A stretch of 64,000 nt of DNA from Patescibacteria group bacterium (lineage in GTDB: Bacteria > Patescibacteriota > Minisyncoccia > UBA6257 > 1-14-0-10-40-38), in NCBI GenBank assembly GCA_038064975.1, contig JBBTRX010000007.1, positions 59,026 through 123,025 of the forward strand, given 5' to 3'. Under the pieces are notes generated by a model. That model made no database searches, was not told the DNA's origin, and was given only the letters and a program-made list of their open reading frames with translations. This document shows positions 288 through 23,332 of the stretch, piece after piece. A program made the position numbers and the translations under genes. Within the stretch, counting starts at the first letter, position 1, and the number at the start of each line of letters is the position of its first letter.

Positions 288-296
288 TTTTTATTT

Positions 297-858: not shown

Positions 859-908
859 TATTCTATTTTGCTCCCGAGCCAGGGATCGAACCTGGGACCG
901 TCGCCTTA

Positions 909-1459: not shown

Positions 1460-1559
1460 ACAGGGCGCCGCTCTACCGCTGAGCTACTCGGGAATATTGA
1501 GTTATAGGCTGTTTTGTAAACAGCGTTACTATTATAATGAACTATACTTAAATCGCAAT

Positions 1560-1838: not shown

Positions 1839-1874
1839 GAAGCTTCGCCGCAGGCCTGGCTTGGAAGCCAATAC

Positions 1875-2609: not shown

Positions 2610-2623
2610 CACGAAACTGATAT

Positions 2624-3043
2624 ATGGCAGAATTAAAAACAAAAGCTACAAAAGAAAGTGTTACAAGATTTTTGAATTCTATCGAACCTAAAGAAAAACG
2701 ATCCGACAGCTTTGTCCTCGTTGGACTGTTTCAAAAAATTACAGGCGAAAAGCCAGTTATGTGGGGGTCAAGTATAGTAGGTTTTGGAACGTATCACTAT
2801 CAGTCGGAAAGAAGCACGCAGAAAGGCGACTGGCCTTTGGCAGCATTTTCGCCGCGAAAACAAAGTCTGACGCTGTATGTTATGGAGGGTAATAAAGATA
2901 GTCAAGAATTATTTAAAAAATTAGGGAAATATAAAACAAGTCTTGCTTGTCTATATATTAATAAACTTTCTGATGTAAACCAAAAAGTACTTATAACACT
3001 TATCAAAAAATCATTTCAATATATGCAGAAGGTTCATAAATAA
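2624..3043 (+). CDS. DUF1801 (YdhG-like) domain protein
   Basis: Size and conserved-block pattern resemble DUF1801. The adjacent YdeI-like partner is the commonly seen pairing. Confidence 0.4.
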   Translation: MAELKTKATKESVTRFLNSIEPKEKRSDSFVLVGLFQKITGEKPVMWGSSIVGFGTYHYQSERSTQKGDWPLAAFSPRKQSLTLYVMEGNKDSQELFKKLGKYKTSLACLYINKLSDVNQKVLITLIKKSFQYMQKVHK

Positions 3044-3051
3044 TAATCCTC

Positions 3052-3303
3052 ATGGATCCCAACCCAACCAAAAAAGGCTCGGTCCACAAACTGCCGACGG
3101 ATTTACGAAAGGCTATTACTTCTTCTTCGGCAGCGCGAACACTATGGGAGGATATTACACCACTTGCACGTAATGAATGGATCTGCTGGGTCATCTCCGG
3201 CAAAAAAGCGGAGACGAGAAATATCCGTATAGAGAAAGCACTTTCAAAGCTTAAAGGCGGAATGCGTAGGCCTTGCTGTTGGGCCGGTTGCCCCCATCGT
3301 TAA
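3052..3303 (+). CDS. YdeI/OmpD-associated family protein
   Basis: LPTDLRKAI...WICWVISGKKAETRNIRIEKALSKL matches the YdeI/OmdA pattern. Confidence 0.55.
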   Translation: MDPNPTKKGSVHKLPTDLRKAITSSSAARTLWEDITPLARNEWICWVISGKKAETRNIRIEKALSKLKGGMRRPCCWAGCPHR

Positions 3304-3343
3304 AAATAGAATTGTTGTATGTAGAAAAAACCGACGCGAATTT

Positions 3344-6586: not shown

Positions 6587-6749
6587 AAATAGATGTGAGA
6601 GAATTCGAGGACGCTTGTCGTTTCTACCAGCATAACTCTTATCTATCGCTTTCCATATTTTTAATATGCACAGTTATGAATATTCGTTTCACGTCGGAAA
6701 AATATGTATAATAAAACATATGAGTAACCACACTAATCAAGGAGGAAAT

Positions 6750-6896
6750 ATGGTTTATTGTTTAGGGCTTATCGGCGCTCTCATTTATTTTATCGGTCAA
6801 GCAACAACATTTTGGATGGGAGTTATAGGAGCTTTGAAAGCTTTGGTATGGCCTGCATTTTTTGTGTATTATGCGTTGGATTTCTTATTTAAGTAA
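6750..6896 (+). CDS. Small 2-TM membrane protein (hypothetical)
   Basis: AAGGAGG Shine-Dalgarno at 6739-6745, 5 nt before the ATG. Two hydrophobic helices. Confidence 0.5.
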   Translation: MVYCLGLIGALIYFIGQATTFWMGVIGALKALVWPAFFVYYALDFLFK

Positions 6897-6902
6897 CTCT
6901 CC

Positions 6903-7445
6903 CTATCTCATCTGCTTCTCTTTACTATCCACTACGCTAATTATTGTTGATGGTTTTCCGTTCAGTTCTCCCTTATCAATAATGAATGATACATTTGCGC
7001 CAAAGTATTTTTTTGCTTCTTCAATAGTTTTCGCCGGCGGCTCACCCTCCAGGTTTGCGCTTGGAGCAACGATGGGGCCCGTTTCCCGCAGGAATTCAAT
7101 AAGCCATTTTTGTTTAGGTAAACGGAAAGCGATACTTCCGGTTCCCCTATGCAGATATGAAAAAGATTTGCTCTCGCACGGTACAACGATACTTACCGGT
7201 CCAGGCCAATATTTTTTAAAAATTTCTTTGGTTACTGCATCAGGTTTAATATTGAACTTTTCTATATCACTCTCTGTACTGATTAATACAATGAGAGGCT
7301 TACGCGAATCTCTTTTCTTAAGCTGATAGATCCGTTCAACTGCCGAAGGTGAAAACGCAGAACAAACCAGACCGTAGATCGTGTCGGTCGGGATAACTCC
7401 AATTTCTCCATTTTTAATCAGTTCAACCTCTTTGCTGTATTCCAT
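6903..7445 (-). CDS. tsaC: L-threonylcarbamoyladenylate synthase (YrdC/Sua5 family)
   Basis: GVIPTDTIYGL and SANLEGEPP motifs; about 180 aa YrdC-type length. Confidence 0.8.
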   Translation of the reverse strand: MEYSKEVELIKNGEIGVIPTDTIYGLVCSAFSPSAVERIYQLKKRDSRKPLIVLISTESDIEKFNIKPDAVTKEIFKKYWPGPVSIVVPCESKSFSYLHRGTGSIAFRLPKQKWLIEFLRETGPIVAPSANLEGEPPAKTIEEAKKYFGANVSFIIDKGELNGKPSTIISVVDSKEKQMR

Positions 7446-8114
7446 ATATATAGCGATCCTAGCAAAGCAATCTATGTGGCGTCTACTGGGGAGTTCTAAT
7501 TCCGTAAGTATTTGGTGTTAGAATTTTTTAAGCGGATATGATACTTTCAAATTAGTTCCCCCACCACTGTACAACCAGGAGCATAGCGATGTGCGGAAGA
7601 GACAATGATGTAGTCGAGCGTCGCTGTAGCGTTTGCCATCAAACGTATTATGGAAGTTTGGGACACATAGGTTGTCCCGCTCAAAGGAGGAAAAACCCCC
7701 AACAAGCGGCGGAACAAGAGCAAGGACTATCAGTTCTCGAAATCGATGAAGCCCTCGATAAGGCGGTGAGGAGAGTCACTGGACCACCCCATCATCACTA
7801 GTCTTCTCAGTTTTCTCAATGAGCACCTGGCTGACCATGTGCTCTTTTTTTTATCTTCACAGATTTTTTATCTTTCATTGGTAATCTTTAATTCATGAAA
7901 ACAGTTACCACAATTCTCATTGTTGTAATAGTACTCGGTTTCGGATATTGGCTTTTTAGCCGTTATCTCGTCTCCAAACTAGACGGCAGTGGAGTTCGTA
8001 TTGAACAAATACGGACATATGTTTAGTAACTGCCTTCTCTAGGGAAATATATCAAGAAGATAAAATTCACGGCCGATTCACTCGTTAAGAGCTATACATT
8101 GAAGACCTAGGATC

Positions 8115-8984
8115 ATGAACAGGATCTTCCATCATCGGTTATTCTTCCCCATAGCACTTATCGTGCTTGTTGCTGTTTATTCTCTTGTCGTGTGGGGACC
8201 GGCCTTGGGAGAGCAATCAGATCCGCCATCTTTTCCAGCAAATATTGCGGAAAAGCAGGAAGACGACTCAATCACTATTCCATCTACTCCAAAACCAGTA
8301 CTTTTCCGCTACGTAGAAATTATAGATAGCTGTGGGCCCCATTATAATGGAGCCTGCGTTAATATGCGTTCCGGACCCGGAGAAACCTATCCCGTCGTTA
8401 GCAAACTCCGTACTGGCATGGTGCTGAAAGTTAAAGACAGCGTTACCACAGAAGGAGGTAAGACCTGGTACGAACTTCTACCCGATGATCATGTACGCTA
8501 TCCGGAACGGGTAACGTCAGATTGGTATGTCTCCGCTGAGGTCGTGCGCGTATTTTATGATGACGGAAGTCATACGCTTCAACGAGGAGGAACCGGATCA
8601 ACGATCGTAAAAACTATCGTTATCAATCGTTCTCTTCAAGAGCTCTACGCGTATGAAAATGGAACTTTAGTAATGCAAATACCTATTTCCACCGGAAAGG
8701 AATTTACTCCCACTCCTCGCGGCACATTTACGGTATACAAGATGACACCGAGCCGCTACATGCAGGGCCCATTGCCTGGCATCAGCGATCAGTACTACGA
8801 CTTGCCCGGCGTCCCTTGGAATCTGTACTTTACGAACGGCGGCGCAGCTATTCACGGCGCGTATTGGCACGATAATTTTGGGCAACCTTGGTCACACGGA
8901 TGCGTCAATCTTCCGCTTGACAAAGCGAAAGAACTTTACCTTTGGGCTGAAGCTGGCATGTCCGTGACGGTGAAAGATTCATGA
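8115..8984 (+). CDS. L,D-transpeptidase (YkuD domain) with SH3b-like domain
   Basis: Signal/TM. SH3_3-like block (YNGACVNMRSGPGETYPVVSKLRTGMVLKV). C-terminal HGAYWHDNFGQPWSHGCVNL catalytic His/Cys. Confidence 0.7.
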   Translation: MNRIFHHRLFFPIALIVLVAVYSLVVWGPALGEQSDPPSFPANIAEKQEDDSITIPSTPKPVLFRYVEIIDSCGPHYNGACVNMRSGPGETYPVVSKLRTGMVLKVKDSVTTEGGKTWYELLPDDHVRYPERVTSDWYVSAEVVRVFYDDGSHTLQRGGTGSTIVKTIVINRSLQELYAYENGTLVMQIPISTGKEFTPTPRGTFTVYKMTPSRYMQGPLPGISDQYYDLPGVPWNLYFTNGGAAIHGAYWHDNFGQPWSHGCVNLPLDKAKELYLWAEAGMSVTVKDS

Positions 8985-9024
8985 AGAAACTTGCTCATAA
9001 TTTCTACATGTGAAAGCATGATGA

Positions 9025-9768
9025 ATGCTATCATTTATCATCGCAATATTCACACTTTTAGGTACAATATTTCCCACTCCAGTTCCCGCACAAAGTATCC
9101 CCGTTCCTGCAACTCAAACTATAACAACTTCGTCTACTTCTACTCCGACTATCCCCGTCTCTCCATCTCAAAAAATATCAGCTTCCTCCACGACTCCTCC
9201 CGTTTCAACCACACCACAGCCCATTCCAGTAAAAAAGATTACATCGGGAACGCCCTCTACGAGCACTGTTCCTCATGTGCCATTTTATTCCCAATTTAAA
9301 GACATTACTTCCGTAGAATGGAAAAAAGTTGGATGCGGTATTGCGAGCTTAGCGATGGTATTGGATTACTATAAGCCCGCAGTTTCCGTAAATACCCTAC
9401 TCCAACAAGGCATTGATTCAGGAGCATATTTGAAAAATGCCGGCTGGACCTACAAAGGCTTGATTGGCGTAGCAAAAAGACACGGTTTAGATGGCACAAG
9501 TTATGACCTTGGGAAATCAGGCAAAGCGATAGCGTTTGAACAATTCAAAAAACAACTCGCGAATGGTCCCGTTATCGCATCGGTACATTATAAGTTTGAT
9601 CCGCAGAGTACCATTCCCCACCTCGTGGTTATTAATGGTATGAGTGGTGACTCGGTCTACTACAATGATCCGGCTGCAAACGGCGGGGAAAAGATAATTT
9701 CTTCCGATACATTCCTCAAAGCTTGGAAAAAAAGATTTATCGTTATACGGCCGGTAGATAAGGTTTAG
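9025..9768 (+). CDS. Secreted peptidase C39-like (C39_2) domain protein
   Basis: Signal peptide, Ser/Thr/Pro-rich linker, then VGCGIASLAMVLDYY (Cys) ... HLVVINGM (His) ... YYNDP. Confidence 0.6.
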   Translation: MLSFIIAIFTLLGTIFPTPVPAQSIPVPATQTITTSSTSTPTIPVSPSQKISASSTTPPVSTTPQPIPVKKITSGTPSTSTVPHVPFYSQFKDITSVEWKKVGCGIASLAMVLDYYKPAVSVNTLLQQGIDSGAYLKNAGWTYKGLIGVAKRHGLDGTSYDLGKSGKAIAFEQFKKQLANGPVIASVHYKFDPQSTIPHLVVINGMSGDSVYYNDPAANGGEKIISSDTFLKAWKKRFIVIRPVDKV

Positions 9769-9818
9769 TGATTAATCTTCATTAATACTTTAGATACCAA
9801 CATGCTAGTATTTTAGTA

Positions 9819-10679
9819 ATGAAGAACAGTATTGGATTAGCTATATTTTCTGCACTTATCTTTTTTTCTTATACCACCGTATCAGCAATTGATTCGGCTT
9901 CTATTATTATTTCTCCCGTGACGGTTATCCAGGGAGAGCCGATACTGATAGCTGTTTCAAATGCAGATGCGTCTGAAGTACAGAAGATTTCGTTTGATAC
10001 TGTTTCGCTCGGCATTTTTACGTATCAGAATAAGCCCACTGCAATCGTGGGAATAGATCTTTATAAAAAGCCAGGGACGTATCCCGTTTTAGTTACGTTA
10101 GCCGATGGCCAGATTCTTGAAACGAAAGTTATTGTAGGTACACGAGAAAAGATAGAAGCGCCACTTGGCATTCCAGAAAAGCTCGGCGGAAATACTCCTG
10201 CAAGCCAGACTAAGCTCGTCACTTCCCTTGCCGCGGAAAACAAAAGTTTGGTAAAGCTCCGCACCGGAACAAAATCATTTTGGAAGGAAGCGTTCAGATT
10301 TCCACTCAAAGAAATCACGATTACGGACGACTATGGCTACTCCAGAACAACCGGAGCATATTCCATAGCTCACAAAGGCACTGATTTTCGCGCGAAGGAA
10401 GGCACAGCAATCAAGGCTATTAATCGTGGCGTGGTCCGCGTCGCGAAAGAATATCGGAACTACGGCAAGACGGTCGTCGTAGATCATGGACTAGGCCTAA
10501 CTTCCCTCTACATGCATCTTTCTAAAATCAAAGTAAACGTTGGCGAGCTTGTTTTGCCTGGACAAGTTATTGGTCTCAGCGGAAAGACGGGCTATGCCAC
10601 GAGTCCACATCTCCACCTTAGCGTGCGCCTCAACGATATTTCCATTGACCCGCTAAAGTTTTTTGAGCTTTTTAAATAA
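9819..10679 (+). CDS. M23 (LytM-type) peptidoglycan endopeptidase
   Basis: HKGTDFRAKEGTAI ... DHGLGLTSLYMHL ... SPHLHLSV: HxxxD and HxH zinc-ligand blocks. N-terminal signal. Confidence 0.8.
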   Translation: MKNSIGLAIFSALIFFSYTTVSAIDSASIIISPVTVIQGEPILIAVSNADASEVQKISFDTVSLGIFTYQNKPTAIVGIDLYKKPGTYPVLVTLADGQILETKVIVGTREKIEAPLGIPEKLGGNTPASQTKLVTSLAAENKSLVKLRTGTKSFWKEAFRFPLKEITITDDYGYSRTTGAYSIAHKGTDFRAKEGTAIKAINRGVVRVAKEYRNYGKTVVVDHGLGLTSLYMHLSKIKVNVGELVLPGQVIGLSGKTGYATSPHLHLSVRLNDISIDPLKFFELFK

Positions 10680-10823
10680 ATTTCGTATTTTTTTCTTCTT
10701 GCAGGAAACGCGGATACTTTTTTGACGAGCTTTTAAATGTTATCCACTTATTTTGAAATTATTTTTCTAGTACCCATGGTATTCTATTTTTAGTACTCAC
10801 CCAACGTACCGGAGGAGGTATGT

Positions 10824-11099
10824 ATGGCACAACAAGAACCCCTTTCCGTTCCGAGAGAATTGGAACAGGCAATAGAGCAATTGAAATGCCATTCACATAT
10901 TTCCGAAGTTGTTCGCGGGGTCTCTGTAAACTGTCTTCATCATCATAGGTCAGGTACCGTAGTATTTGAAAGAGAAAATCCCTACGGAATACGCGCGAGC
11001 GCGTACACAGAAAACAGAGTCTTGACGCTCTATCTGCACGTAGAACACTCGCATCGAGAAGAGATCAAACGATTCCTTTCGACGCTTACGCACGGATAG
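10824..11099 (+). CDS. Hypothetical His/Cys-rich protein in a GC-rich islet
   Basis: SD GGAGGAGG 5 nt upstream. CHSH/CLHHH/HVEHSH clusters. Followed by a terminator. Confidence 0.45.
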   Translation: MAQQEPLSVPRELEQAIEQLKCHSHISEVVRGVSVNCLHHHRSGTVVFERENPYGIRASAYTENRVLTLYLHVEHSHREEIKRFLSTLTHG

Positions 11100-11106
11100 C
11101 TGTGAG

Positions 11107-11140
11107 CCGCCACGCCCTTCGGGACGGAGGCGGTTTTTTA
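11107..11140 (+). terminator. Rho-independent terminator
   Basis: GCCGCCACGCCCTTCGGGACGGAGGCGG followed by TTTTTTA. Confidence 0.6.
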
Positions 11141-11151
11141 TTGTAGAAATA

Positions 11152-11179
11152 TTGACAATCCATAGTATTCTGCTATAAT
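11152..11179 (+). promoter_or_regulatory. Consensus sigma70-type promoter
   Basis: TTGACA (11152-11157), 16-nt spacer, TATAAT (11174-11179), about 50 nt upstream of the GTG start at 11230. Confidence 0.55.
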
Positions 11180-11229
11180 TTGCAACGGATCATTTTTACC
11201 CCCCAATACTTCAACGAGGAGAACTACAG

Positions 11230-11577
11230 GTGCAAAATCTCGGCGAACTACTCAAGGAAGCCGGCGTTCCAGGAGCCAGAGCAAAAACTGCGAAACCCCT
11301 GGAAAACGTACCTAAAGTGACTAGTCAAGAACTCGCGCAGATGACTGGCGGGAACTTTAATCTCGTGAGTGCGTCTGCGAGTCTTTTCCTGTCCTTTCCT
11401 GTGGACACTCGGGGCCGGTACATAGGTGCCTTTTGCCGAAACACGCCGGACGGGAAAAAGGGCCATGAGTTGTGGCTTGAATTCGAAACTCGCCAGCGTC
11501 GCAGTCCAGTGAAGCCCTATGTCTTCACGAATTTCGGGAGAGAAGTCCTCGCCGACGCAGGCTATCCGGTGGAGTGA
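11230..11577 (+). CDS. Hypothetical protein (GTG start) in a GC-rich islet
   Basis: GAGGAG SD 6 nt upstream of the GTG. Stop overlaps the next start (GTGA). Confidence 0.45.
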   Translation: MQNLGELLKEAGVPGARAKTAKPLENVPKVTSQELAQMTGGNFNLVSASASLFLSFPVDTRGRYIGAFCRNTPDGKKGHELWLEFETRQRRSPVKPYVFTNFGREVLADAGYPVE

Positions 11578-11789
11578 ATTCCTACAGAAAGGCAACCGTG
11601 CTACACAAGCGCACGACGGACTCGACTCAAGCAGCAGCTAACATCGCCGATCGTGAATACGATGTTGCGTGGAGAGATGCCGCATATCAAAAACAGGTAT
11701 ACGGTTTCACCTCCATCGACCCCGATGAAACATGGACGCACGTCTATCACGAAGTTCTGCAAGAACTCGTGGGATACTGCCCTTCCTGA
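11574..11789 (+). CDS. Hypothetical protein, translationally coupled to the upstream ORF
   Basis: GTGA start/stop overlap. Followed by a strong terminator. Confidence 0.4.
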   Translation: MNSYRKATVLHKRTTDSTQAAANIADREYDVAWRDAAYQKQVYGFTSIDPDETWTHVYHEVLQELVGYCPS

Positions 11790-11796
11790 TTCCCTT

Positions 11797-11840
11797 GCGC
11801 CGCCAATCCCTTACCGGATAGGCGGCGCTTCTTTTTTATT
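11797..11840 (+). terminator. Rho-independent terminator
   Basis: GCGCCGCC...GGCGGCGC followed by TTCTTTTTTATTTT. Confidence 0.6.
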
Positions 11841-11933
11841 TTCTAATGTAAATTAAATGTCCATCGCACTTTACTAAGTCACGATGTCTTCGTCGCTCCT
11901 CGCTCCTTGAGAAGTGCGTGGTACACTAGATTT

Positions 11934-12218
11934 ATGGACCAACTTATGAAAGCAGATATTTTCTTTTTTATATCTTCTATAGCAACTGTTGTGCTTACAG
12001 CGCTAGTTTCTATTCTTCTTTTCTATCTTATTAAAGCCGGAAAAAATCTTTCTGAACTTTCAGAGGTACTGAAAGGTAATATAAAAGAATCAAAAGAATT
12101 TATTCAAGATCTTAAGGAACGCTTAGAAGACAATATTGTATTTCGGCTCTTTTTTCCTTCACCACGGAAAAGAAAAGAAACTTCAGCGAAAAATCATAAA
12201 GGAAAGAGCAATACTTAA
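11934..12218 (+). CDS. Small membrane protein (hypothetical)
   Basis: One long hydrophobic helix then a charged coiled-coil-like tail. Start site uncertain (ORF opens at 11907). Confidence 0.4.
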   Translation: MDQLMKADIFFFISSIATVVLTALVSILLFYLIKAGKNLSELSEVLKGNIKESKEFIQDLKERLEDNIVFRLFFPSPRKRKETSAKNHKGKSNT

Positions 12219-12245
12219 CTATTACTCATAATTTTAAAAAAACCT

Positions 12246-12635
12246 ATGCCAAAGAAAACTACAGCAAACGGTGGTGGAAATGTAGCACTCATGGGAGCAA
12301 CGCTCGCGGGAATCGCGGCAACGGCTTATTTCTTCCTCGGGCCGAAGGGAAAGAAACACCAAAAACAAGCAAAGGCTTGGGCGATAAAGATGAAAGGCGA
12401 AGTTGTAGAAAAGCTGGAACGTGCTAGAGAAGTCAGCGAACCGATTTACCACCAAATCATTGATACGGTTGCAGCAAAGTATGGTGAAGAAAAGGATGCT
12501 AACCGTAATGAAATACGCGAATTAACAGAGGATTTAAAAAAACATTGGAAAACCTTAAGCGGCAAAGCGGGTGCCGTAAAGCACAAGGTAGTACGAGGCG
12601 CGAAGAAAGCTACGGCGAAAGTGACAAAAGAATAG
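12246..12635 (+). CDS. YtxH-like (DUF948) protein
   Basis: N-terminal MGATLAGIAATAYFFLGPKGKK followed by charged helices, typical of the YtxH family. Confidence 0.55.
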   Translation: MPKKTTANGGGNVALMGATLAGIAATAYFFLGPKGKKHQKQAKAWAIKMKGEVVEKLERAREVSEPIYHQIIDTVAAKYGEEKDANRNEIRELTEDLKKHWKTLSGKAGAVKHKVVRGAKKATAKVTKE

Positions 12636-13438
12636 GCGTGGAATCGCAATAGAAAAATGCCATCGTATGATGGCATTTTTCTTGCAAGAATCTAGTACAA
12701 CGCTCCGCCACTCTAGTTTTGGCTGCCGCTGTTGCTTCCGCTATTACTGCCGTCGTTGCTTCCGCCTGGCAAGTTCAGATCCACGTTAATATCGTTTGTC
12801 CCGTCATTGGGGGTCGTATCCGCGCGAACCGCAAACCACCAAACTCCGAATCCTACGAGAAGAAGGAGTACGATTACTATAAGGATAGTATTGGTACTGG
12901 ACACATTGTTATTCTCTTCCATGGTAATGTAATGGTTTTTTAATAGATATCGACCACTAATTCAGATATCTGAACGTTTTTCCCTAGCTTTTATAATGCG
13001 CCTAGGCGCATTAAGATGCTGTGAATTTCAAATAATAAAGAATGGACAATGAATAATAAAAATTAGCTGAAGTTAATATTTTTTGTTATGCTTCATTATA
13101 AGTTAATCCTTTTTCTACGATCATAAATATTATGAAATCAAGCTTTACTCCTTCCATCTTGAGCGTCATCCCGTTAGAAATTTTGTCCCACTCGCCATAT
13201 ACTATATCTATGAATCACCATAAATATAAACCAGCCCTACGGGGACTATTTCTAACGAAATGAGCAAACACAATAAAGACCAGTTCAATAATCCTGTTTC
13301 AAAAAAAGATATTGAAATGAAAAATATGCATCGCACGGTAGCCGCACGTTTGAATCCTGACGCGCATAGCTTTAATTTGAAACCCGTACGCAAACCAAAA
13401 GCGAGCGGTAAAAAAGGAAATAGATAACTCCCACTTAA

Positions 13439-13470
13439 AAGACCGCAAGATTCACTCAGCGGTCTTTTTT
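13439..13470. terminator. Bidirectional hairpin terminator
   Basis: AAAAGACCGCAAGATTCACTCAGCGGTCTTTTTTG. Confidence 0.5.
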
Positions 13471-13489
13471 GTATAGCCAGTAGTAATAC

Positions 13490-13518
13490 TTGACATTATT
13501 ACTATTGTATGCTATTAT
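13490..13518 (+). promoter_or_regulatory. Sigma70-type promoter for the 13566 gene
   Basis: TTGACA, 17-nt spacer, TATTAT. AGGAGGTG SD before the GTG at 13566. Confidence 0.5.
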
Positions 13519-13565
13519 TAAAGAGTTAGAAACTCCCCAAAACAAGCCTAGAAAGGAGGTGCGGA

Positions 13566-14147
13566 GTGAGCACTTTAACAATCGCAGGTTGCATCATTGG
13601 CCTTTCGGTCTATGTGCCTCTCTGCATTCAAGTTCTCTCAGGCAGAGCAAAACTCAATTTTGCCACCTGGATACTGTTCGCGATCCTCGATGGCATCACT
13701 GCGGGTGCAATCTACTACGCAGGAGGTAGCTACTTTCTACCAGCAGCCTATACTCTCGGAAGCCTGGTAACGTCGGTATGCGTTCTGAAATCCAAGAATT
13801 TCTCGTGGACGCGGTTCGAGACGATGGTCACGTTTCTCGTAGTCACGTGTCTCGTTGTCTGGATCATCTCTGGTCCGACCGTTGCTACAGTAGCAGGGAC
13901 AACAGCAGTTGCGATCGCCTGCATTCCTCAGTTCATCGATACTTATCGAGAACCGTGGAAGAGTCCCCTTTTGAGCTGGAGCGGATTTATGATCGCGAAT
14001 GCTCTTGTTACTGCAGGCGGCGCGGAATGGTCCATTGAAGAGAGACTTTACCCAGCGGTCTGCACGTTGCTTACGACCGCAGTCGTCCTTCTCACTGTCC
14101 GGCGGTACTGGACGAAAGAGCCTTCCACTATGGAATCAAACATCTAG
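13566..14147 (+). CDS. PQ-loop repeat family membrane protein
   Basis: Six or seven TM helices. Two loop motifs (PLCIQVLSG and CIPQFIDTYR) resemble duplicated PQ-loop signatures. Confidence 0.45.
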   Translation: MSTLTIAGCIIGLSVYVPLCIQVLSGRAKLNFATWILFAILDGITAGAIYYAGGSYFLPAAYTLGSLVTSVCVLKSKNFSWTRFETMVTFLVVTCLVVWIISGPTVATVAGTTAVAIACIPQFIDTYREPWKSPLLSWSGFMIANALVTAGGAEWSIEERLYPAVCTLLTTAVVLLTVRRYWTKEPSTMESNI

Positions 14148-14169
14148 AGTTACTCGCTCTGTACACTGA

Positions 14170-14212
14170 ACGAGCAGGAGCCCACTACTTCGGTCGCGGG
14201 CTCCTTTCTTTT
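14170..14212 (+). terminator. Rho-independent terminator
   Basis: GGAGCCCACTACTTCGGTCGCGGGCTCC followed by TTTCTTTTTTAT. Confidence 0.6.
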
Positions 14213-14253
14213 TTATATATTATTTGACAGTTATCCTCCTAAGCAGTAATTTT

Positions 14254-14904
14254 ATGCCAGATCCTCTCATCTTTCTCCAGTCCTTAACTCAAGGAGTTTC
14301 CGTGGACGCCTATCGCAAAAACGCACTACTCTCCGTTTACGACAAAGAAGGCATCGTAGAATTCGCCTGGGGACTCATTGATTTGGGATGGAATCTGTTT
14401 AGTTCAGGTGGAACTGCCAAAGTTCTCCAAGAAGCCGGTCTCGCCGTCACTGACATCGGTACCATTGTAGGACCGCCTATTCTCGGTCACCGTGTTGTCA
14501 CGCTCTCACGAGAACTCCATGCCGGACTTCTCGCGCGGAACACGCCGGAAGACCTTGCTGAACTTCAGCGGATCGGCGCGCCATACTTTGACCTTGTTTG
14601 CGTGGACCTGTATCCGCTTCAAGCGGAAACGGAACGTGAAGGGGCAACCATGGAAAGCGTGATTGAGAAAACCGACATCGGCGGACCGACTCTTCTTCGT
14701 TCTGGCGCAAAAGGTCGGCGTCTCGTCATTTCAAATCGTGAATCGCGAGAACTTGTCCTTCGACACCTTCAGGAAGGTACCGGCGACGATCCCGACCTTC
14801 GCCATATGTTTGCAATGGAAGCCGAACGGTTGGTCTCACGTTACTGTGATATCTCAGTACGATTTCTCGACTCTCACTTCGAGACCCTTCCTTCGGTTTC
14901 CTGA
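14254..14904 (+). CDS. Stand-alone MGS-like domain protein resembling the IMP-cyclohydrolase half of PurH
   Basis: ALLSVYDKEGIVEFAWGLIDLGWNLFSSGGTAKVLQEAGL...DLVCVDLYP...IEKTDIGGPTLLRSGAKG parallels the PurH N-terminal domain. No AICAR-transformylase half follows. Confidence 0.55.
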   Translation: MPDPLIFLQSLTQGVSVDAYRKNALLSVYDKEGIVEFAWGLIDLGWNLFSSGGTAKVLQEAGLAVTDIGTIVGPPILGHRVVTLSRELHAGLLARNTPEDLAELQRIGAPYFDLVCVDLYPLQAETEREGATMESVIEKTDIGGPTLLRSGAKGRRLVISNRESRELVLRHLQEGTGDDPDLRHMFAMEAERLVSRYCDISVRFLDSHFETLPSVS

Positions 14905-14960
14905 AAGGAAACACGCTCCGCCCCCCCGCACGACCCCTCGGTCGTGCGGCTTTTTTATTC
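14905..14960 (+). terminator. Rho-independent terminator
   Basis: CCGCACGACCCCTCGGTCGTGCGG followed by CTTTTTTATT. Confidence 0.6.
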
Positions 14961-15075
14961 ATCTCATTATTTCTTCATTGTTTAAGAAATACTATGAGCT
15001 TAGCTCCCATTATCTCTTGGGTAGCCATATTCATTTACATACGACAACATTACAACCAACCTGAGGAGTGGCACC

Positions 15076-16032
15076 ATGACAAACGTAGTCTGCTTTGGCG
15101 GAGGCACCGGCCTCCCCGTCCTTCTTTCGGGACTGAAGAAAAATCGTGATCTTGAAATATCTGCGATTGTGACTATGTTTGACAACGGAGGAAGCTCTGG
15201 TGAGCTCCGAAACCAATTTGGCATTCTCCCACCAGGAGATATCCTAAAATGTCTTCTTATGCTCTCTGAAAATGCTAAAGAAGAATCAATCCGAGATTTG
15301 TTTTTGTACCGCATTGAAGACGGCGACCCCCCGAATCACACCCCAGGCAATATGATGCTCGTTGGTCTCCAACAGACCTACGGAATCATGAAAGCCGTAA
15401 AGATATTACAAAAGATCTTTCGGACGAAAGGAAATGTTTATCCTGTTGCGATAGGATCAAGCCACCTGTGTTGCGCATATACAGATGGGGATGTCGTGCA
15501 TGGAGAGACAGAAGTGGATGAAGGGATCCGTAAAGGAAAGACTCCTCAACGCCTCTACCTTATGCCAACAGTACAACATAACGAGGATATTCAAGAAGTT
15601 ATCGGCAGTGCAGATGCTTTTTGTGTCGGTCCGGGGAGTTTGTACACCAGTATTATCCCTAATTTTCTTCCTCATGGAGTGAAGAGGATGCTCATGGATT
15701 CTACGGCACCTATCATATTCGTGAGCAACCTACTCACGGAAGGTAAGGGTATGACGAGTAGCGCTCTCCATCATCAGATAGAGATCGCTGAACAATACAT
15801 CGGCCGCGAAGTGACGGCGATCATCGCAAATACCAAACTTCCTCACGAAATGTCTTCGGAGATTCTGGAAAAGTATGCCAAGGAAAAAAAGTACCCCATT
15901 CTCTGCAATGGAGAACATGATCCGAGGTACGTCAAACGTGCCCTATGGACAGAACCGACGCTCGCACGGCATGATTCCAAGCTCCTCTCTTGTGCCGTTC
16001 ACGACGCGCTCAACCAACTTTGTCCCGCATAA
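15076..16032 (+). CDS. YvcK/CofD-family (UPF0052) gluconeogenesis-factor-like protein
   Basis: VVCFGGGTGLPVLLSGLK ... MFDNGGSSGELR ... ILPPGD: family-defining motifs. Confidence 0.7.
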   Translation: MTNVVCFGGGTGLPVLLSGLKKNRDLEISAIVTMFDNGGSSGELRNQFGILPPGDILKCLLMLSENAKEESIRDLFLYRIEDGDPPNHTPGNMMLVGLQQTYGIMKAVKILQKIFRTKGNVYPVAIGSSHLCCAYTDGDVVHGETEVDEGIRKGKTPQRLYLMPTVQHNEDIQEVIGSADAFCVGPGSLYTSIIPNFLPHGVKRMLMDSTAPIIFVSNLLTEGKGMTSSALHHQIEIAEQYIGREVTAIIANTKLPHEMSSEILEKYAKEKKYPILCNGEHDPRYVKRALWTEPTLARHDSKLLSCAVHDALNQLCPA

Positions 16033-16043
16033 GGACAAATAAC

Positions 16044-16086
16044 GCCGCCAAGGATTTCTCTAGAAATCCGAGGCGGCTCTTTTTTT
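16044..16086. terminator. Bidirectional terminator between convergent genes
   Basis: GCCGCCAAGGATTTCTCTAGAAATCCGAGGCGGC flanked by A- and T-runs. Confidence 0.55.
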
Positions 16087-16101
16087 AAAAAAGGAACTTA
16101 C

Positions 16102-17475
16102 TTAACTAGTATATAAATCAAAAATAGCTTTAAGATCCGCGAGACTCGCGGGCTTTGTAAGGTGGTGATTAAACCCCGCCCGTTGGGCACGCATTTTATC
16201 TTCTTCCTGTCCAAAACCAGTAAGTGCAATAAGAACAACGTCCGAAAGCTGGGGATCTGTCCTTAATTTTGTCGCCACAGCATAGCCATCCAATTCCGGC
16301 ATTCTGATATCCAATAAGACAATGTTCGGCTTCTCACGAAAAACTGCAGTCAAGGCTTCACGCCCCGAATAGACCGCAGAAGCATTGAAGCCGGCGAACC
16401 CTAAGAGCTTTTTCATTGCGTCCGCCGCGTCTTTATTGTCGTCAACGATGAGAATATTTTGCGTCATTAAAATTTTTACCCCCCCTTCGGTACTATTGCC
16501 GTTCATCATAGTACGAACAGGAATGAGTGGCAATTTCACCGTGAATATACTCCCCTTTCCTAATCCCTCGCTCTTCGCTGAAACCGTGCCACCATGGAGC
16601 TCCACAAGTGAGCGTACGAGTGCAAGCCCAATTCCCAATCCTCCTTTGAAATGAGCTGAAGGAGTTTCTTCTTGAGTAAACAAATTAAATATTTGAGAGA
16701 TCATCTGCCTACTAATTCCCCTCCCGGTATCCTGAACTTCTATGATCGTTGATCCATTTTCTAAACGGACACGAAGCCAAATTGTTCCGCCTGATTCGGT
16801 ATATTTTATAGCATTAGAGAGTAGATTTACAATAATTTGCTCAAGCCGTAGAGAATCTGCTATAAGCACCACGGGCTGGTCCGGCAATGAAATCTCGAGC
16901 GTATGCCGGGCTTCTTCAAGAAGCGGATTTATGGAATTGACCGTGTGATCAATCAATTCTTGCAGGCGTATTTCACTTACGTTCAGTTGGAGCTTATTTG
17001 AACTAATACGCGCAACGTCAAGAAGTTCCTTTAAAAGGCGCGTAAGCACTCCGAATTGGTGCTCAATCATAGCGATACTTCCCTTGAGCTCCTCGTCTTC
17101 AATACCGCGAAGTTTTATGTATTCCAAAGAACTCGTAATCGGAGCCATGGGGTTACGAAGCTCATGAGAAAGGATGGCTAAAAATCTGTTTTTAGCCGTA
17201 ATTTCATCCTGCAGATCTTCAAGAATGTTGATAACTGCTTTTTGTGTTTCTGTGTTGCCACTGCGTTCAAGCTCCAGGTCTTCGAAAATATTCATCATCG
17301 CCTGCTGCAAATATTCCGCATCCATGCGTGCGCGCTTCCGCTGCATTCCTAATGATGCCATAAGGCGCATCGTATCCGGAGAAGTATTTGCAGTAAACAA
17401 ATCGGACTGTAATCGAGATATTGATTCAGCCAATCTTTGTTTCGCGGATTGTATTTTTTGTTCTTTAATTTTCAT
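16102..17475 (-). CDS. Hybrid sensor histidine kinase (coiled coil, HisKA, HATPase_c, C-terminal receiver)
   Basis: H-box SHELRNPMAPI. G-box GGLGIGLALV. Receiver ILIVDDNKDAADAM...DIRMPELDGY...LTGFG. Confidence 0.75.
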   Translation of the reverse strand: MKIKEQKIQSAKQRLAESISRLQSDLFTANTSPDTMRLMASLGMQRKRARMDAEYLQQAMMNIFEDLELERSGNTETQKAVINILEDLQDEITAKNRFLAILSHELRNPMAPITSSLEYIKLRGIEDEELKGSIAMIEHQFGVLTRLLKELLDVARISSNKLQLNVSEIRLQELIDHTVNSINPLLEEARHTLEISLPDQPVVLIADSLRLEQIIVNLLSNAIKYTESGGTIWLRVRLENGSTIIEVQDTGRGISRQMISQIFNLFTQEETPSAHFKGGLGIGLALVRSLVELHGGTVSAKSEGLGKGSIFTVKLPLIPVRTMMNGNSTEGGVKILMTQNILIVDDNKDAADAMKKLLGFAGFNASAVYSGREALTAVFREKPNIVLLDIRMPELDGYAVATKLRTDPQLSDVVLIALTGFGQEEDKMRAQRAGFNHHLTKPASLADLKAIFDLYTS

Positions 17476-18809
17476 GCTTCGTGGGATAACTTTCTTAATT
17501 CTTCAATTTCTCTTTTAAGTTCAATCATTTTAAGTTCTCTTCCCACGGTAAGCCGTTGGAACCTTTCCAATTCTACGACCTTTCCTTCAAGGCCTTGCGC
17601 ATATTGCGCGAGCTTTTTTTCTAGCTGTTTACGTTCGGTGATGTCTTGACCCACGCCAATAACACCGATGATGTTGCCTTGCACATCACGGCGAGTCGTA
17701 GCGTTGAGTAGTACGTCACGGCGATCTTTGCGTTTTGTATATAAAGGGAATTCGTAGTTCGCGGTTTCCATACCCGTGAGCGCTTTGTCCAAAACTTCAC
17801 GTACAGCAGTCCTATGCTCTTCGGTGATAAATTCTTCCACGAGATTCCTACCTAACGTCTCTGCCTTCTCATAGCCGGTGATAGCAACAGCGGTGCGGTT
17901 CCACTCCGTTACGCGGCCGTTCTTGTCGATGCCGAAGATTGGAGCATTTACGGTATCAATAAAGTTTGCGAGCTCTTGGGCGATACGAGCAGATTCAACT
18001 TCAGCTTTTTTACGTTCAGTAATGTCTTGACCCACGCCAATAACACCGATGATGTTGCCTTGCACATCACGGCGAGTCGTAGCGTTGAGTAGTACGTCAC
18101 GGCGATCTTTGCGTTTTGTATATAAAGGGAATTCGTAGTTCGCGGTTTCCATACCCGTGAGCGCTTTGTCCAAAACTTCACGTACAGCAGTCCTATGCTC
18201 TTCGGTGATAAATTCTTCCACGAGATTCCTACCTAACGTCTCTGCCTTCTCATAGCCGGTGATAGCAACAGCGGTGCGGTTCCACTCCGTTACGCGGCCG
18301 TTCTTGTCGATGCCGAAGATTGGAGCATTTGCGGTATCAATAAGGTTTGTGAGCTCTTGGGCAATACGAGCAGATTCAACTTCAGCTCTTTTACGTTCAG
18401 TTATATCGCTTAACGCTACAAACGTACCGATGATCTTACCGTTCTCATCTTTTTGAACAGTGGCATTATAGAGGACGTCTGTAAATCTTTTATTGCTTGT
18501 ATGGCGGACGGTAAGCTGGTAATTTGCGATGGACCCGTCTTTGAGCGCCCGGCGATACACGGCCTGGGATTTTGCGGGTTCAGTAAAGTAGTTAGAAAAA
18601 TTAGTATCAATAATTTGCATTCTTGGAACTCCAGTTATTTTTACCGTAGCGTCATTTACGTCAATAACCCTTCCTTCCGAGTTGATAGTAATTAAAGGAT
18701 CAAGGCTCGCCTCAATAAGGCCACGAGCGTATTGCGAGGTATGGGATGAATTGTCTTTTGCGGTTTCGTGATGATGTATTTTTATAAGGGCTTTCTTTAG
18801 CATATACAT
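17472..18809 (-). CDS. Triple-PAS sensor protein; ATGA overlap with the downstream kinase
   Basis: Three PAS-like modules; the second and third are near-identical. C-terminal coiled coil. Its stop overlaps the ATG of the hybrid kinase. Confidence 0.6.
   Translation of the reverse strand: MYMLKKALIKIHHHETAKDNSSHTSQYARGLIEASLDPLITINSEGRVIDVNDATVKITGVPRMQIIDTNFSNYFTEPAKSQAVYRRALKDGSIANYQLTVRHTSNKRFTDVLYNATVQKDENGKIIGTFVALSDITERKRAEVESARIAQELTNLIDTANAPIFGIDKNGRVTEWNRTAVAITGYEKAETLGRNLVEEFITEEHRTAVREVLDKALTGMETANYEFPLYTKRKDRRDVLLNATTRRDVQGNIIGVIGVGQDITERKKAEVESARIAQELANFIDTVNAPIFGIDKNGRVTEWNRTAVAITGYEKAETLGRNLVEEFITEEHRTAVREVLDKALTGMETANYEFPLYTKRKDRRDVLLNATTRRDVQGNIIGVIGVGQDITERKQLEKKLAQYAQGLEGKVVELERFQRLTVGRELKMIELKREIEELRKLSHEA
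17625..18386. repeat. Near-perfect direct tandem duplication, 2 x 381 bp
   Basis: DNA at about 17643-18003 recurs at about 18023-18383 with a handful of mismatches. It encodes two 127-aa PAS repeats (AEVESARIAQEL...DITERK). Confidence 0.8.
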
Positions 18810-18961: not shown

Positions 18962-19342
18962 ATGGCACATAAAAAATATTCAATTCTTATCGTGGACGAC
19001 GACAAGAGTGTTGCCCATTTGATGCATACGTTAGTTCGCGGACTTGGACACGAAGCACACTGCGTCTATGACGGCAGTGAGGCGATTTCGGCATTCCGCA
19101 CCCGCAAGCCGAAGGTAATCCTCTTGGATATCGGACTCCCTACCATGGACGGCTACGAGGTCGCTCGGACCATCCGCAATCAGAATCACGAAGATCCGGT
19201 AATCATTGTGGCGGTGACCGGGTACGGTCGGAGAGTTGAAAAAATTAAGTCAGAAGAAGCCGGATTCAACTATCACCTAACCAAGCCCGTCTCCATAGAG
19301 GCGTTGAGGCATATTATTGACCCACCTGATGAAGAATTTTAA
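18962..19342 (+). CDS. Single-domain response regulator (CheY-like receiver)
   Basis: ILIVDDDKSVAHLM...LLDIGLPTMDGYEV...VTGYG. No output domain. Confidence 0.75.
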   Translation: MAHKKYSILIVDDDKSVAHLMHTLVRGLGHEAHCVYDGSEAISAFRTRKPKVILLDIGLPTMDGYEVARTIRNQNHEDPVIIVAVTGYGRRVEKIKSEEAGFNYHLTKPVSIEALRHIIDPPDEEF

Positions 19343-21697: not shown

Positions 21698-23332
21698 TTA
21701 GAGAGAAAGAACTTTGTAATCCGTAACTTCAACATCCATAAAATCAGTGCGAATTCCGAGACCGTGACTTCCGGTAACCGGCGTACCGCCTGTTGCGCCC
21801 GTATCAAGAGCTTGAGCAATAAGCGTCCACGTTCCTGTTTTGCCCTGATCCATATAGAGTTTAATGTCTACGCCAGCTGGTGTATCTTTCACTATAGTTT
21901 TTATGCCTAGCCACTGGTTATGCGGAAGAAGATTAGGATTGGTCGTTGCGTTGTACGTGCCGGGAAAGACCGTTGCAAACGCAAGCGAAGTATATGTCCC
22001 ATTTCTTTTTTTCTTGATTACTGCCTTGCCGTCAACGCGAAGGCCGGCGTAATAGAGATTTTGCCCATCTTGATAACGATTAAAGAGTAGAAGCGCATTA
22101 TGTTCAGCTTGATTCGGACTGTTGCTTAGATTATCGGCAACGATATTAAAATATGCTGACTGCTCGTAATTCTGCCAAAACTTCTTTGTAACGAGCCGAA
22201 AGATATTTTGGGGATAGAAACCGTTGTCGGTATCTATAGGATTGTTCGCAGCGTAGAGTAATTTCCAGGGATCATTCGCGGGAAGACTCCCGATAATCGT
22301 GCGGCCTACGCCGTTTGCAATATTAAAGTAAGCTCCAGAATTTACCCACCACTCCGCATCAGCGCTCTGAGAAGGAGACGAAGCTTCTATAACGGTCCGG
22401 TTAGTAGAAAGCCCATAGAGAGAACCATCACCTCCACCGTTGCCTCCACTACCACTACTGCCGGATGCGGGCCCTCCTACCAAACGATAGGTGTCCATTT
22501 CTATATCCATGAAGTCACTTCGGATGGCAGGCTTTCCTTCCGCGGTAATGGGAGCGCCATATTTTGAACCGTCATCAAGCGCTTCCGCGACAAGTTTCCA
22601 CGTGCCAGTATTGCCTTGGTCAAGATAGAGTTTCACGCGAACCGCGCCCGAGGTTTCGGTTAATGTTTCTGTCCTCAAACCCATCCAGGTATTTATAGGA
22701 ATAAGGTTCGGCGTCGTTGCCGCATTATACGTACCCGGGAAAACTTTTGAAGAAGCCATCGTGTAGTACGTATTGCCTAATTTCTTTTTAATCACAACTC
22801 CTCCATCCATCCGGATACCTGCGTAGTAGAAAATTTCGTTATTTTGGTAACGCGAAATAAGAGAGATGCCATGATAGGGCTTACGATTTGTGGCATTATC
22901 AAGATTATCGCCTTTGATTCGTGCATAGATTGACTGATCAATATTTTGCCATTTGGTTCGAAAGAAGACTTGAAAGAGATTCTGAGGATGAAAGCCATTA
23001 TCGCTTGCTTGCGGCTGGGAAGCTGCATATATCGCCTTCCACGGATCATTCGCGGGAAGATCTCCTGAAATAGTTTTGCCTACGCCGCCGCTTAATATGA
23101 AGCGGCCACCGGAGGGAAGCCACCAATAAGGACTAGTACTTTGATTCTCTGTATTTGTCTGAACAAGAGTGCCGTTTATATTAAAATTATATGTAAACGG
23201 CGATGTTACTGTTGCCGCCTCACTCGCTTGCACTTCCGTTGTAAGAGTTCGGGAAGGGAACAGGGTTACAGTCGCGATTGCCACAACTAAAGCAATCTTT
23301 CCGAAAAACGCTGCAGAATTTCTAATAATCAT
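21698..23332 (-). CDS. Secreted protein with two tandem jelly-roll (DUF1080/ConA-like lectin-glucanase-like) modules
   Basis: Signal peptide. Internal duplication (WW.NSG...LP.NDPW...NGF.PQN.F...RYQ...YYAG.R.DG..VIKKK...NL.P.N.W.G...G.GIR.DFMD.E) joined by a Gly/Ser linker. Confidence 0.5.
   Translation of the reverse strand: MIIRNSAAFFGKIALVVAIATVTLFPSRTLTTEVQASEAATVTSPFTYNFNINGTLVQTNTENQSTSPYWWLPSGGRFILSGGVGKTISGDLPANDPWKAIYAASQPQASDNGFHPQNLFQVFFRTKWQNIDQSIYARIKGDNLDNATNRKPYHGISLISRYQNNEIFYYAGIRMDGGVVIKKKLGNTYYTMASSKVFPGTYNAATTPNLIPINTWMGLRTETLTETSGAVRVKLYLDQGNTGTWKLVAEALDDGSKYGAPITAEGKPAIRSDFMDIEMDTYRLVGGPASGSSGSGGNGGGDGSLYGLSTNRTVIEASSPSQSADAEWWVNSGAYFNIANGVGRTIIGSLPANDPWKLLYAANNPIDTDNGFYPQNIFRLVTKKFWQNYEQSAYFNIVADNLSNSPNQAEHNALLLFNRYQDGQNLYYAGLRVDGKAVIKKKRNGTYTSLAFATVFPGTYNATTNPNLLPHNQWLGIKTIVKDTPAGVDIKLYMDQGKTGTWTLIAQALDTGATGGTPVTGSHGLGIRTDFMDVEVTDYKVLSL

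What the first reader, a model, noticed from the sequence alone, without database searches (positions are those of the whole stretch)
17625..18386. Near-identical 381-bp tandem duplication creating a PAS-PAS repeat inside a sensor protein
Two 381-bp units are identical except for a few substitutions, in frame, encoding duplicate 127-aa PAS modules. This indicates a very recent duplication. Tandem repeats of this length are contraction/expansion hot spots and could act as a contingency locus tuning a signalling input. They are also an assembly-collapse risk.
Basis: seen in the sequence. Interest (0 to 1): 0.55.

Follow-up and report, generated by a model that had tools for sequence, protein, structure and literature searches.

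The report
Tandem PAS repeat, identity probably artefactual
A groundwater bacterium's sensor gene really does carry two tandem copies of a 127-residue PAS domain, but their near-perfect identity is most likely produced by the metagenome assembler, so it is not good evidence of a very recent duplication.

Summary
The repeat is real: 381 bp x 2 with 7 mismatches, in frame on the minus strand. It encodes PAS2 and PAS3 of a 445-aa PAS-only protein (17472-18809) that overlaps a hybrid histidine kinase gene by ATGA. All 7 differences lie in the first 77 nt of the unit (linker and N-terminal helix), and 309 bp are identical. An independent metaSPAdes assembly of the same Hainich groundwater Patescibacteria population is identical to the window over about 51 kb except for 66 mismatches. 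These are 33 changes, identical in both units, confined to a 174-bp core patch ("X" in the window, "Y" in the other assembly; 19% divergent, 28 synonymous). Exact stretches of 64 and 71 bp flank the patch. A simulation shows that a true X/Y gene forms a simple equal-length bulge inside a loop at k=55, which metaSPAdes collapses by design. Unitig-level contigs from single sequencing runs break at exactly the predicted forks. The units are therefore probably about 10% divergent (40/381), an ordinary older duplication. Relatives carry 1, 2 or 3 units, and a finished Halioglobus chromosome has three 99%-identical 381-bp units, so real homogenised repeats remain a rival explanation. Read linkage across 66 bp would settle it. 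Interest is low.

The parts
17472..18809 (-). Gene for a 445-aa cytoplasmic PAS-only protein: PAS1, PAS2 (unit A), PAS3 (unit B) and a 57-aa helical tail
   Evidence: ORF list; Pfam finds three PAS hits, PF00989 E=2.5e-54; identical to P0122 and to NCBI MEK7612434.1 'Patescibacteria group bacterium'
18408..18809 (-). PAS1 (aa 1-134), about 30% identical to the repeated unit; ends with the same DITERK linker motif
   Evidence: tblastn 29.8% identity; junction sequences
18027..18407 (-). Repeat unit A (PAS2), 381 bp / 127 aa. Sub-parts: capA 18331-18407, S1 18267-18330, core patch 18093-18266, S2 18027-18092
17646..18026 (-). Repeat unit B (PAS3), 381 bp / 127 aa. Sub-parts: capB 17950-18026, S1 17886-17949, core patch 17712-17885, S2 17646-17711
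   Evidence: Logan contig L088 ends at 17711, L087 at 17670
18093..18266 (-). Core patch of unit A (unit nt 142-315). 'X' version in the window; 'Y' version (33 differences) in assembly ERZ1292627
17712..17885 (-). Core patch of unit B (unit nt 142-315). 'X' in the window and 'Y' in ERZ1292627, with the same 33 differences as in unit A
17472..17645 (-). C-terminal helical tail (DITERKQLEKK...RELKMIELKREIEELRKLSHEA) and stop codon; conserved in relatives P0003, P0140 and P0255
16102..17475 (-). Hybrid histidine kinase (HisKA, HATPase_c, receiver), no sensor domain of its own; start codon overlaps the PAS gene stop (ATGA)
18962..19342 (+). Divergently transcribed single-domain response regulator

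Best explanation
The gene carries a genuine but ordinary tandem duplication of a 127-aa PAS module together with its N-terminal linker helix. In the real genome the two units most likely have different cores, one 'X' and one 'Y'. That makes them about 10.5% divergent overall (40 of 381 nt), with short identical stretches (S1 64 bp, S2 71 bp) on either side of a 174-bp patch that is 19% divergent. At the largest default k of metaSPAdes (55), X and Y form two parallel edges of equal length between the same two graph nodes, inside the loop created by the tandem repeat. The assembler collapses this bulge onto one allele and then walks the loop twice. The contig therefore shows the same core in both units: XX in the window's assembly, YY in others. 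The cap differences survive because they sit on uniquely anchored edges. Shown: the two-cap tandem structure, the XX/YY discordance on a background with no other SNPs, the graph topology, and the fork positions in per-run unitigs. Inferred: that the window's contig was built the same way, and that the true arrangement is X/Y within one genome. Biologically, the protein is a PAS-only input module with phytochrome-type PAS domains. It is translationally coupled to a sensor-less hybrid kinase, which it presumably regulates through its helical tail.
For: (1) The window and the metaSPAdes contig Hain_H51_01um_R2_44 (ERZ1292627) align over 21,338 bp with exactly 66 mismatches and no gaps. All 66 are 2 x 33 at the same unit positions 142-315. 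A further 30 kb is 100% identical. That is 0 differences in about 51 kb outside the patches against 66 in 348 bp (Fisher P about 1e-146). (2) X and Y differ by 28 synonymous and 5 conservative changes, and each is partly ancestral relative to the outgroup L092 (X matches the outgroup at 11 sites, Y at 16, neither at 6). They diverged long ago and are not new mutations. (3) The simulation of a true A-X/B-Y gene gives this path at k=55: entry edge, shared S1 (10 k-mers), two parallel edges of 228 k-mers each, shared S2 (17 k-mers), then either the capB back-edge or the exit. At k>=77 the structure is fully resolved. (4) Logan k=31 contigs from single runs are 100% identical to the window and stop at unit A position 107, unit B position 357 and, in SRR32696705, unit B position 316, one base after the last X/Y difference. 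These match the predicted forks. (5) Each Hainich replicate was assembled separately with metaSPAdes v3.13 (PMC8672522), and metaSPAdes 'collapses larger bulges' to produce a consensus (PMC5411777). (6) X and Y differ at 5 of 101 core residues, the same range as the three units of relative P0003 (3-8), and units group by lineage.
Against: No contig or protein with the X-Y or Y-X arrangement is present in the 15-billion-protein collection, and no fragment links a cap type to a patch type. The arrangement is therefore inferred, not observed. A mixture of XX and YY haplotypes would produce the identical k-mer set. Near-identical 381-bp tandem units of this PAS type do exist in a finished chromosome (Halioglobus CP159826.1: 3 copies, 3-8 differences), so real homogenised units are plausible in this family. 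Even under this explanation, the true units are mosaic (0 differences in S1 and S2 against 19% in the patch), which itself requires past gene conversion or a patch import. The assembler used for the window's own contig is not documented here. The SPAdes bulge-length limit (about 3k+100) is recalled from memory, not verified.
Confidence: 0.65

Rival explanations
1. Both contig versions are real. The population contains two haplotypes, XX and YY, produced by intragenic gene conversion between the tandem units (concerted evolution caught in progress). Each assembly reports whichever haplotype was more abundant.
For: Units group by lineage in relatives. A finished Halioglobus genome has three 99%-identical 381-bp units, so homogenisation or recent amplification does happen in this family. 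S1 and S2 are identical between units although they are 20-30% divergent from the outgroup, which already implies some past conversion. No X-Y or Y-X protein is on record.
Against: This needs two independent conversions with identical boundaries, in opposite directions, both reaching high frequency, in a population with no other SNP over about 51 kb. It also needs near-balanced frequencies so that replicate assemblies flip. An X/Y fork is seen within a single unrelated run as well, which the one-genome model predicts automatically.
Confidence: 0.15
2. The locus really is XX (or YY), a true near-identical repeat. The other patch version comes from a paralogous PAS gene elsewhere in the same genome, or from a co-occurring relative that shares the S1/S2 k-mers. 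The assembler substituted it into both units in some assemblies.
For: This gives the same graph argument as the best explanation. This PAS unit type is widespread and is often multi-copy.
Against: There is no Y-like sequence elsewhere in the 64-kb window. No near-identical fragments from another context are in the collection. A foreign source that is 100% identical over S1 and S2 but 19% divergent in between is unlikely. An extra locus should add a third branch at the forks. Only 64 kb of the genome could be inspected.
Confidence: 0.12
3. One reading: a simple, very recent duplication. The contig is correct as it stands and the 7 substitutions arose after the duplication.
For: 98% identity over 381 bp with no indels.
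Against: The differences are clustered in 77 of 381 nt. This view gives no explanation for the YY version, which differs at 33 mostly synonymous sites in both copies on an otherwise identical genome.
Confidence: 0.04

Closest known systems
Tandem PAS-domain arrays in bacterial and archaeal multi-PAS sensor kinases ('PAS domain S-box' proteins)
   Same: Same domain family and the same 127-aa (381-bp) module consisting of linker helix plus PAS core, with the conserved 'GVGQDITE(R/L)K' junction. Homologs carry 2 to 6 or more such units, some of them near-identical (P0001, P0007, P0035, P0085).
   Different: Here the PAS array is a separate polypeptide from the kinase. The separation is conserved in three Patescibacteria lineages. 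In non-CPR homologs the units are fused directly to HisKA.
PAS-A domain of the C-terminal module of plant phytochromes A/B (e.g. PDB 7rzw, 9iuz, 8isk)
   Same: Best solved sequence match (E=3e-28, unit residues 12-133 against phyB 649-774) and top structural match of the AlphaFold model (rmsd 1.6-1.8 A over about 110 columns).
   Different: There is no bilin-binding PAS-GAF-PHY photosensory core in this protein or in its neighbours. It is a relative of the domain only, not a phytochrome.
De Bruijn-graph bulge collapse (consensus 'strain masking') in metaSPAdes
   Same: Two equal-length alternative paths between the same nodes are replaced by one, giving a consensus that need not exist in any molecule (PMC5411777). 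The topology is reproduced for this locus at k=55.
   Different: The procedure is designed for variation between strains. Here the two alleles are most likely the two paralogous copies of a tandem repeat within one genome, so the collapse creates false repeat identity.
Concerted evolution of tandem repeats by gene conversion or unequal crossing-over
   Same: Units are more alike within a genome than between genomes, and copy number is 1, 2 or 3 among relatives. S1 and S2 are identical between the units while they differ from the outgroup.
   Different: The extreme identity of the 309-bp core in this contig cannot be taken as evidence for it, because of the XX/YY discordance between assemblies.

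Membership tests
PAS domain (Pfam PF00989 / PF08448 / PF13426) | Profile match above the curated threshold | tested here: met
   Three stretches: PF00989 182.5 bits (cut-off 22.6) and PF08448 156.6 bits
PAS domain (Pfam PF00989 / PF08448 / PF13426) | Five-stranded antiparallel beta-sheet flanked by helices | tested here: met
   AlphaFold2 model, pLDDT 87.4: strands 30-34, 38-42, 88-96, 102-113, 119-128; helices 44-50, 54-57, 62-66, 69-83; N-terminal helix 2-24. PAS structures top the Foldseek list
Phytochrome | Bilin-binding PAS-GAF-PHY photosensory module | tested here: not met
   Only PAS families hit; there is no GAF or PHY in this ORF or its neighbours. The similarity is limited to the C-terminal PAS-A domain of plant phytochromes
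Sensor histidine kinase (single polypeptide) | HisKA and HATPase_c in the same protein as the sensor domains | tested here: not met
   The PAS ORF has no kinase domains. They are in the next ORF, 16102..17475, which overlaps by ATGA. The split is conserved in the P0003 and P0140 loci
Contingency (phase-variable) repeat locus | Repeat-number changes that switch or alter expression, seen as length heterogeneity within a population | not testable with these tools
   This needs reads. All three resolved assemblies show 2 units, but the loop traversal count is chosen by the assembler
Contingency (phase-variable) repeat locus | Short repeat units (1-10 bp) prone to slippage, usually shifting the frame | tested here: not met
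   The unit is 381 bp and in frame
Assembly bulge-collapse artefact | Independent assemblies of the same population differ only at the repeat, and both copies change together | tested here: met
   66 mismatches = 2 x 33 at identical unit positions; 0 elsewhere in about 51 kb
Assembly bulge-collapse artefact | Exact flanks at least k long, making the variant region an equal-length bulge within the assembler's limits | tested here: met
   S1 is 64 bp and S2 is 71 bp, both >= 55. Two parallel edges of 228 k-mers at k=55; resolved at k>=77
Assembly bulge-collapse artefact | The assembler used collapses such bulges | tested here: inconclusive
   metaSPAdes v3.13 is documented for the Hainich assemblies, including L001. 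The window's own assembly method is not documented, and is only inferred from the similar contig length (125,242 vs 121,540 bp) and the ENA source
Assembly bulge-collapse artefact | Reads link capA and capB to different patch versions | not testable with these tools
   No access to reads. k=31 unitigs cannot span the 64-bp S1
Concerted evolution by gene conversion | Paralogous units more similar within than between genomes | tested here: met
   Core residue differences: X-Y 5; P0003 units 3-8; between lineages 11-16
Concerted evolution by gene conversion | The homogenised state verified in single molecules | not testable with these tools
   Needs long reads or spanning reads

The most novel reading that the evidence does not exclude
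XX and YY are both real haplotypes coexisting in an otherwise clonal Patescibacteria population. In that case intragenic gene conversion between the two PAS modules would be fast enough to be seen within a single aquifer population, swapping a 174-bp sensor-core cassette in both directions.
Probability: 0.12. Interest if true: 0.5.

Novelty: new member of a known kind. Interest (0 to 1): 0.2.

Why it matters
Biologically this is a routine lineage-specific expansion of a PAS module in a two-component input protein. The value is mainly methodological. A tandem repeat in a short-read metagenome-assembled genome can look freshly duplicated, or homogenised by concerted evolution, simply because the assembler collapsed the paralogous differences. 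Comparing replicate assemblies of the same population exposes this without needing reads. Claims about recent duplication, gene conversion or contingency loci in such genomes should be checked this way. A secondary point is that this Patescibacteria clade keeps its phytochrome-type PAS array as a separate protein, translationally coupled to a sensor-less kinase.

Tried and rejected
(1) Exact look-up of the window protein and of P0121/P0122 in the gene-position index found nothing, so the window's own contig name and assembler could not be read. (2) Exact look-up of hypothetical X-Y and Y-X proteins (445 and 443 aa) found nothing in the collection. (4) The JGI metagenome scan with a PAS1-specific query gave at best 56-60% identity and no close relatives. 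(5) Protein searches with the N-terminal part and with a single unit, meant to find fragments linking cap type to patch type, returned no hit of 95% identity or more. (6) DNA of the three-unit relative P0003 could not be retrieved because the sample file is too large, so its units were compared at the protein level only. (7) The search for a Y-like paralog or donor cassette elsewhere in the window found none. (8) A diversity-generating or cassette-switching mechanism was considered and rejected, because 28 of the 33 X/Y differences are synonymous. (9) The promoter and terminator scans were at background level and uninformative.

Full report
OBSERVATION. Tandem Repeats Finder reports a single array at window 17628-18401: period 381, 2.0 copies, 98% matches, no indels, score 1499. 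It is the only tandem repeat scoring 80 or more in the 64-kb window. A direct offset-381 comparison shows 7 mismatches and a 309-bp exact stretch, 17641-17949 = 18022-18330. The coding strand is the minus strand. ORF 17472..18809 encodes a 445-aa protein with three Pfam PAS domains (PF00989, E=2.5e-54) and no other domain. In coding phase, unit A (PAS2) is 18027-18407 and unit B (PAS3) is 17646-18026.

CONTEXT. The PAS gene's stop codon overlaps (ATGA) the start of ORF 16102..17475, a hybrid kinase with HisKA, HATPase_c and receiver domains and no sensor domain of its own. A single-domain response regulator is transcribed divergently (18962..19342), and a second kinase/OmpR-type pair follows. 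The protein is identical to NCBI MEK7612434.1, 'MAG: Patescibacteria group bacterium'. The same genome appears in metagenomes from the Hainich groundwater observatory.

THE KEY COMPARISON. Contig Hain_H51_01um_R2_44 (ENA ERZ1292627, 121,540 bp) is syntenic with the window. Over 21,338 aligned bases there are exactly 66 mismatches and no gaps. All 66 lie in the repeat: 33 in each unit, at the same unit positions 142-315. Two further loci from that contig, covering window 1-16586 and 32072-54657, are 100% identical, as are unitig-level Logan contigs from four separate sequencing runs. About 51 kb therefore carries no difference outside the two 174-bp patches, and the patches are 19% divergent (Fisher P about 1e-146). 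I call the window's version X and the other version Y. The window is XX and the Hainich contig is YY. A second contig of 381,697 bp also encodes the YY protein. The cap differences that distinguish unit A from unit B are the same in both assemblies. X and Y differ by 28 synonymous and 5 conservative substitutions (A/T, H/Y, R/K, Y/F, K/R). Against an outgroup unit (L092), X matches the outgroup at 11 of the 33 sites, Y at 16, and neither at 6. X and Y therefore diverged long ago under purifying selection. They are not recent mutations.

WHY AN ASSEMBLY ARTEFACT IS THE BEST READING. Two haplotypes that differ only by the same 33 mostly silent changes in both repeat units, and nowhere else in 51 kb, are hard to produce biologically. 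They are easy to produce in an assembler. The source study assembled each filter replicate separately with metaSPAdes v3.13 (PMC8672522). The metaSPAdes paper states that it 'collapses larger bulges' to give a consensus of variants (PMC5411777). I simulated the graph for a hypothetical true gene with X in unit A and Y in unit B. At k=55, the largest default k for such reads, the gene gives the following path: a unique entry edge, a shared S1 segment (unit 78-141, 64 bp), two parallel edges of exactly 228 k-mers each (X and Y), a shared S2 segment (71 bp), then either the capB back-edge or the exit. That is a simple equal-length bulge inside a loop. Collapsing it and walking the loop twice yields XX or YY, depending on small coverage differences. 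The cap differences are preserved because they sit on uniquely anchored edges. From memory of the SPAdes configuration, the bulge-length limit is about 3k+100 = 265, which is above 228. I could not verify that number here. At k>=77 the simulated gene resolves completely.

The k=31 prediction for fork positions is met exactly by the Logan contigs. Those coming from upstream end at unit A position 107 (= 77 + 30). One coming from downstream ends at unit B position 357. One from an unrelated run (SRR32696705) ends at unit B position 316, one base after the last X/Y difference, which indicates an X/Y fork within a single run. These forks also show that the two-cap tandem structure exists in the raw data of several runs, so the duplication itself is real.

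WHAT THE TRUE GENE PROBABLY LOOKS LIKE. It probably has two units differing at 40 of 381 nt (10.5%) and 9 of 127 residues. That is in line with a relative, P0003, whose three units differ at 3-8 core residues, against 5 for X versus Y. Units group by lineage: X and Y differ from units of other lineages at 11-16 core residues. Related Patescibacteria genes carry one unit (P0140, 310 aa, on a Logan contig that runs through the gene without a break, with no tandem repeat found), two units (this genome) or three units (P0003, 572 aa). The module has therefore been amplified independently in different lineages, or homogenised within them. All three junctions (PAS1|A, A|B, B|tail) share the sequence GAyATnACyGAACGTAAA, encoding DITERK. 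This gives a plausible site for unequal recombination and explains the fixed 381-bp period. S1 and S2 are identical between the units yet 20-30% divergent from the outgroup, so some real gene conversion or a patch replacement has occurred in this lineage. The units are mosaic under any model.

WHAT KEEPS THE RIVALS ALIVE. A mixture of XX and YY haplotypes would give exactly the same k-mer set. No X-Y or Y-X protein is on record, and no fragment links a cap type to a patch type. A finished Halioglobus chromosome (CP159826.1) has three 381-bp units of the same PAS type that differ at only 3-8 nt, so truly near-identical repeats do occur in this family. The assembler used for the window's own contig is inferred, not documented. 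A Y-bearing paralog elsewhere in the genome cannot be excluded from 64 kb, although none is present in the window. I put the one-genome X/Y model at about 0.65, real XX and YY haplotypes at about 0.15, a real XX locus with a foreign or paralogous Y at about 0.12, and a simple very recent duplication at about 0.04.

FUNCTION. An AlphaFold2 model of one unit (50-sequence alignment A1; pLDDT 87.4) shows a long N-terminal helix (residues 2-24) followed by a canonical PAS fold. The cap differences (residues 7, 20, 22, 26) lie on this helix or at its end. In PAS proteins generally (established knowledge) this helix connects and couples neighbouring domains. The X/Y differences lie in C-alpha (48), the start of F-alpha (71, 72), G-beta (91) and the G-H loop (98), and all are conservative. 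The closest solved relatives are the PAS-A domains of the C-terminal module of plant phytochromes B and A, by sequence (E=3e-28) and by structure (rmsd 1.6-1.8 A). Eukaryotic homologs in diatoms, oomycetes and green algae also appear in the searches. There is no GAF or PHY domain, so this protein is not a phytochrome. Non-CPR homologs fuse the same units directly to HisKA (P0087, P0001, P0035). In three Patescibacteria lineages the PAS array is a separate gene immediately upstream of the kinase (ATGA overlap here, a 12-bp gap in the P0003 contig, a 20-bp overlap in L092). The most likely mechanism (inference) is a split sensor kinase: the PAS protein senses an unknown cytoplasmic signal and controls the kinase through its conserved helical tail.

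VERDICT. The 'very recent duplication' and 'contingency locus' readings are not supported. The feature is an ordinary member of a well-known kind, tandem PAS modules in two-component input proteins. The decisive test is simple and uses public reads: check the linkage between unit positions 58-77 and 142-156 in PRJEB36505, or reassemble with k>=77.

Noticed in passing
window 16102-18809 (-); L092 6001-8256; P0003 contig: Split sensor kinase. The PAS array and the kinase are separate genes that overlap or abut (ATGA overlap here, 12-bp gap in the P0003 contig, 20-bp overlap in L092) in three Patescibacteria lineages. Non-CPR homologs fuse the same PAS units directly to HisKA. In the window the kinase and receiver are fused (457 aa), while relatives have separate HK (324-325 aa) and REC (123-126 aa) genes.
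   Followed up: partly
window 17646-18407 (-): The repeated PAS unit's closest solved relative is the PAS-A domain of the C-terminal module of plant phytochrome A/B (E=3e-28; rmsd 1.6-1.8 A). Close homologs also occur in diatoms, oomycetes (Phytophthora, Aphanomyces), a cryptophyte and Pyramimonas.
   Followed up: partly
L093 1744-2882 (Halioglobus sp. Uisw_031 chromosome CP159826.1): Same 381-bp period: 3.0 copies, 99% identity (3-8 nt differences between units) in a finished gammaproteobacterial chromosome. P0085 also has two identical units. This suggests recurrent amplification or homogenisation of this PAS module in unrelated lineages.
   Followed up: partly
proteins P0129, P0123: The PAS1-type module ('SQYARSLIEASLDPL...') forms its own near-identical tandem arrays in other organisms.
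   Followed up: no
window 21698-23332 (-): A 544-aa ORF with no Pfam hit recorded for it on the matching Hainich contig. It contains an internal duplication: the two halves are 47% identical over 238 aa (E=1e-85).
   Followed up: partly
P0255 (JGI contig, 3,430 bp): A related gene fragment begins inside a repeat unit ('VIGVGQ|DITERKK...'). That is another metagenome assembly that broke at this type of repeat.
   Followed up: no
tool behaviour: In all three homologous-protein searches, every listed hit was at most about 1.75x the query length (779, 317 and 233 aa). Short queries therefore exclude longer homologs, including the parent protein itself.
   Followed up: no
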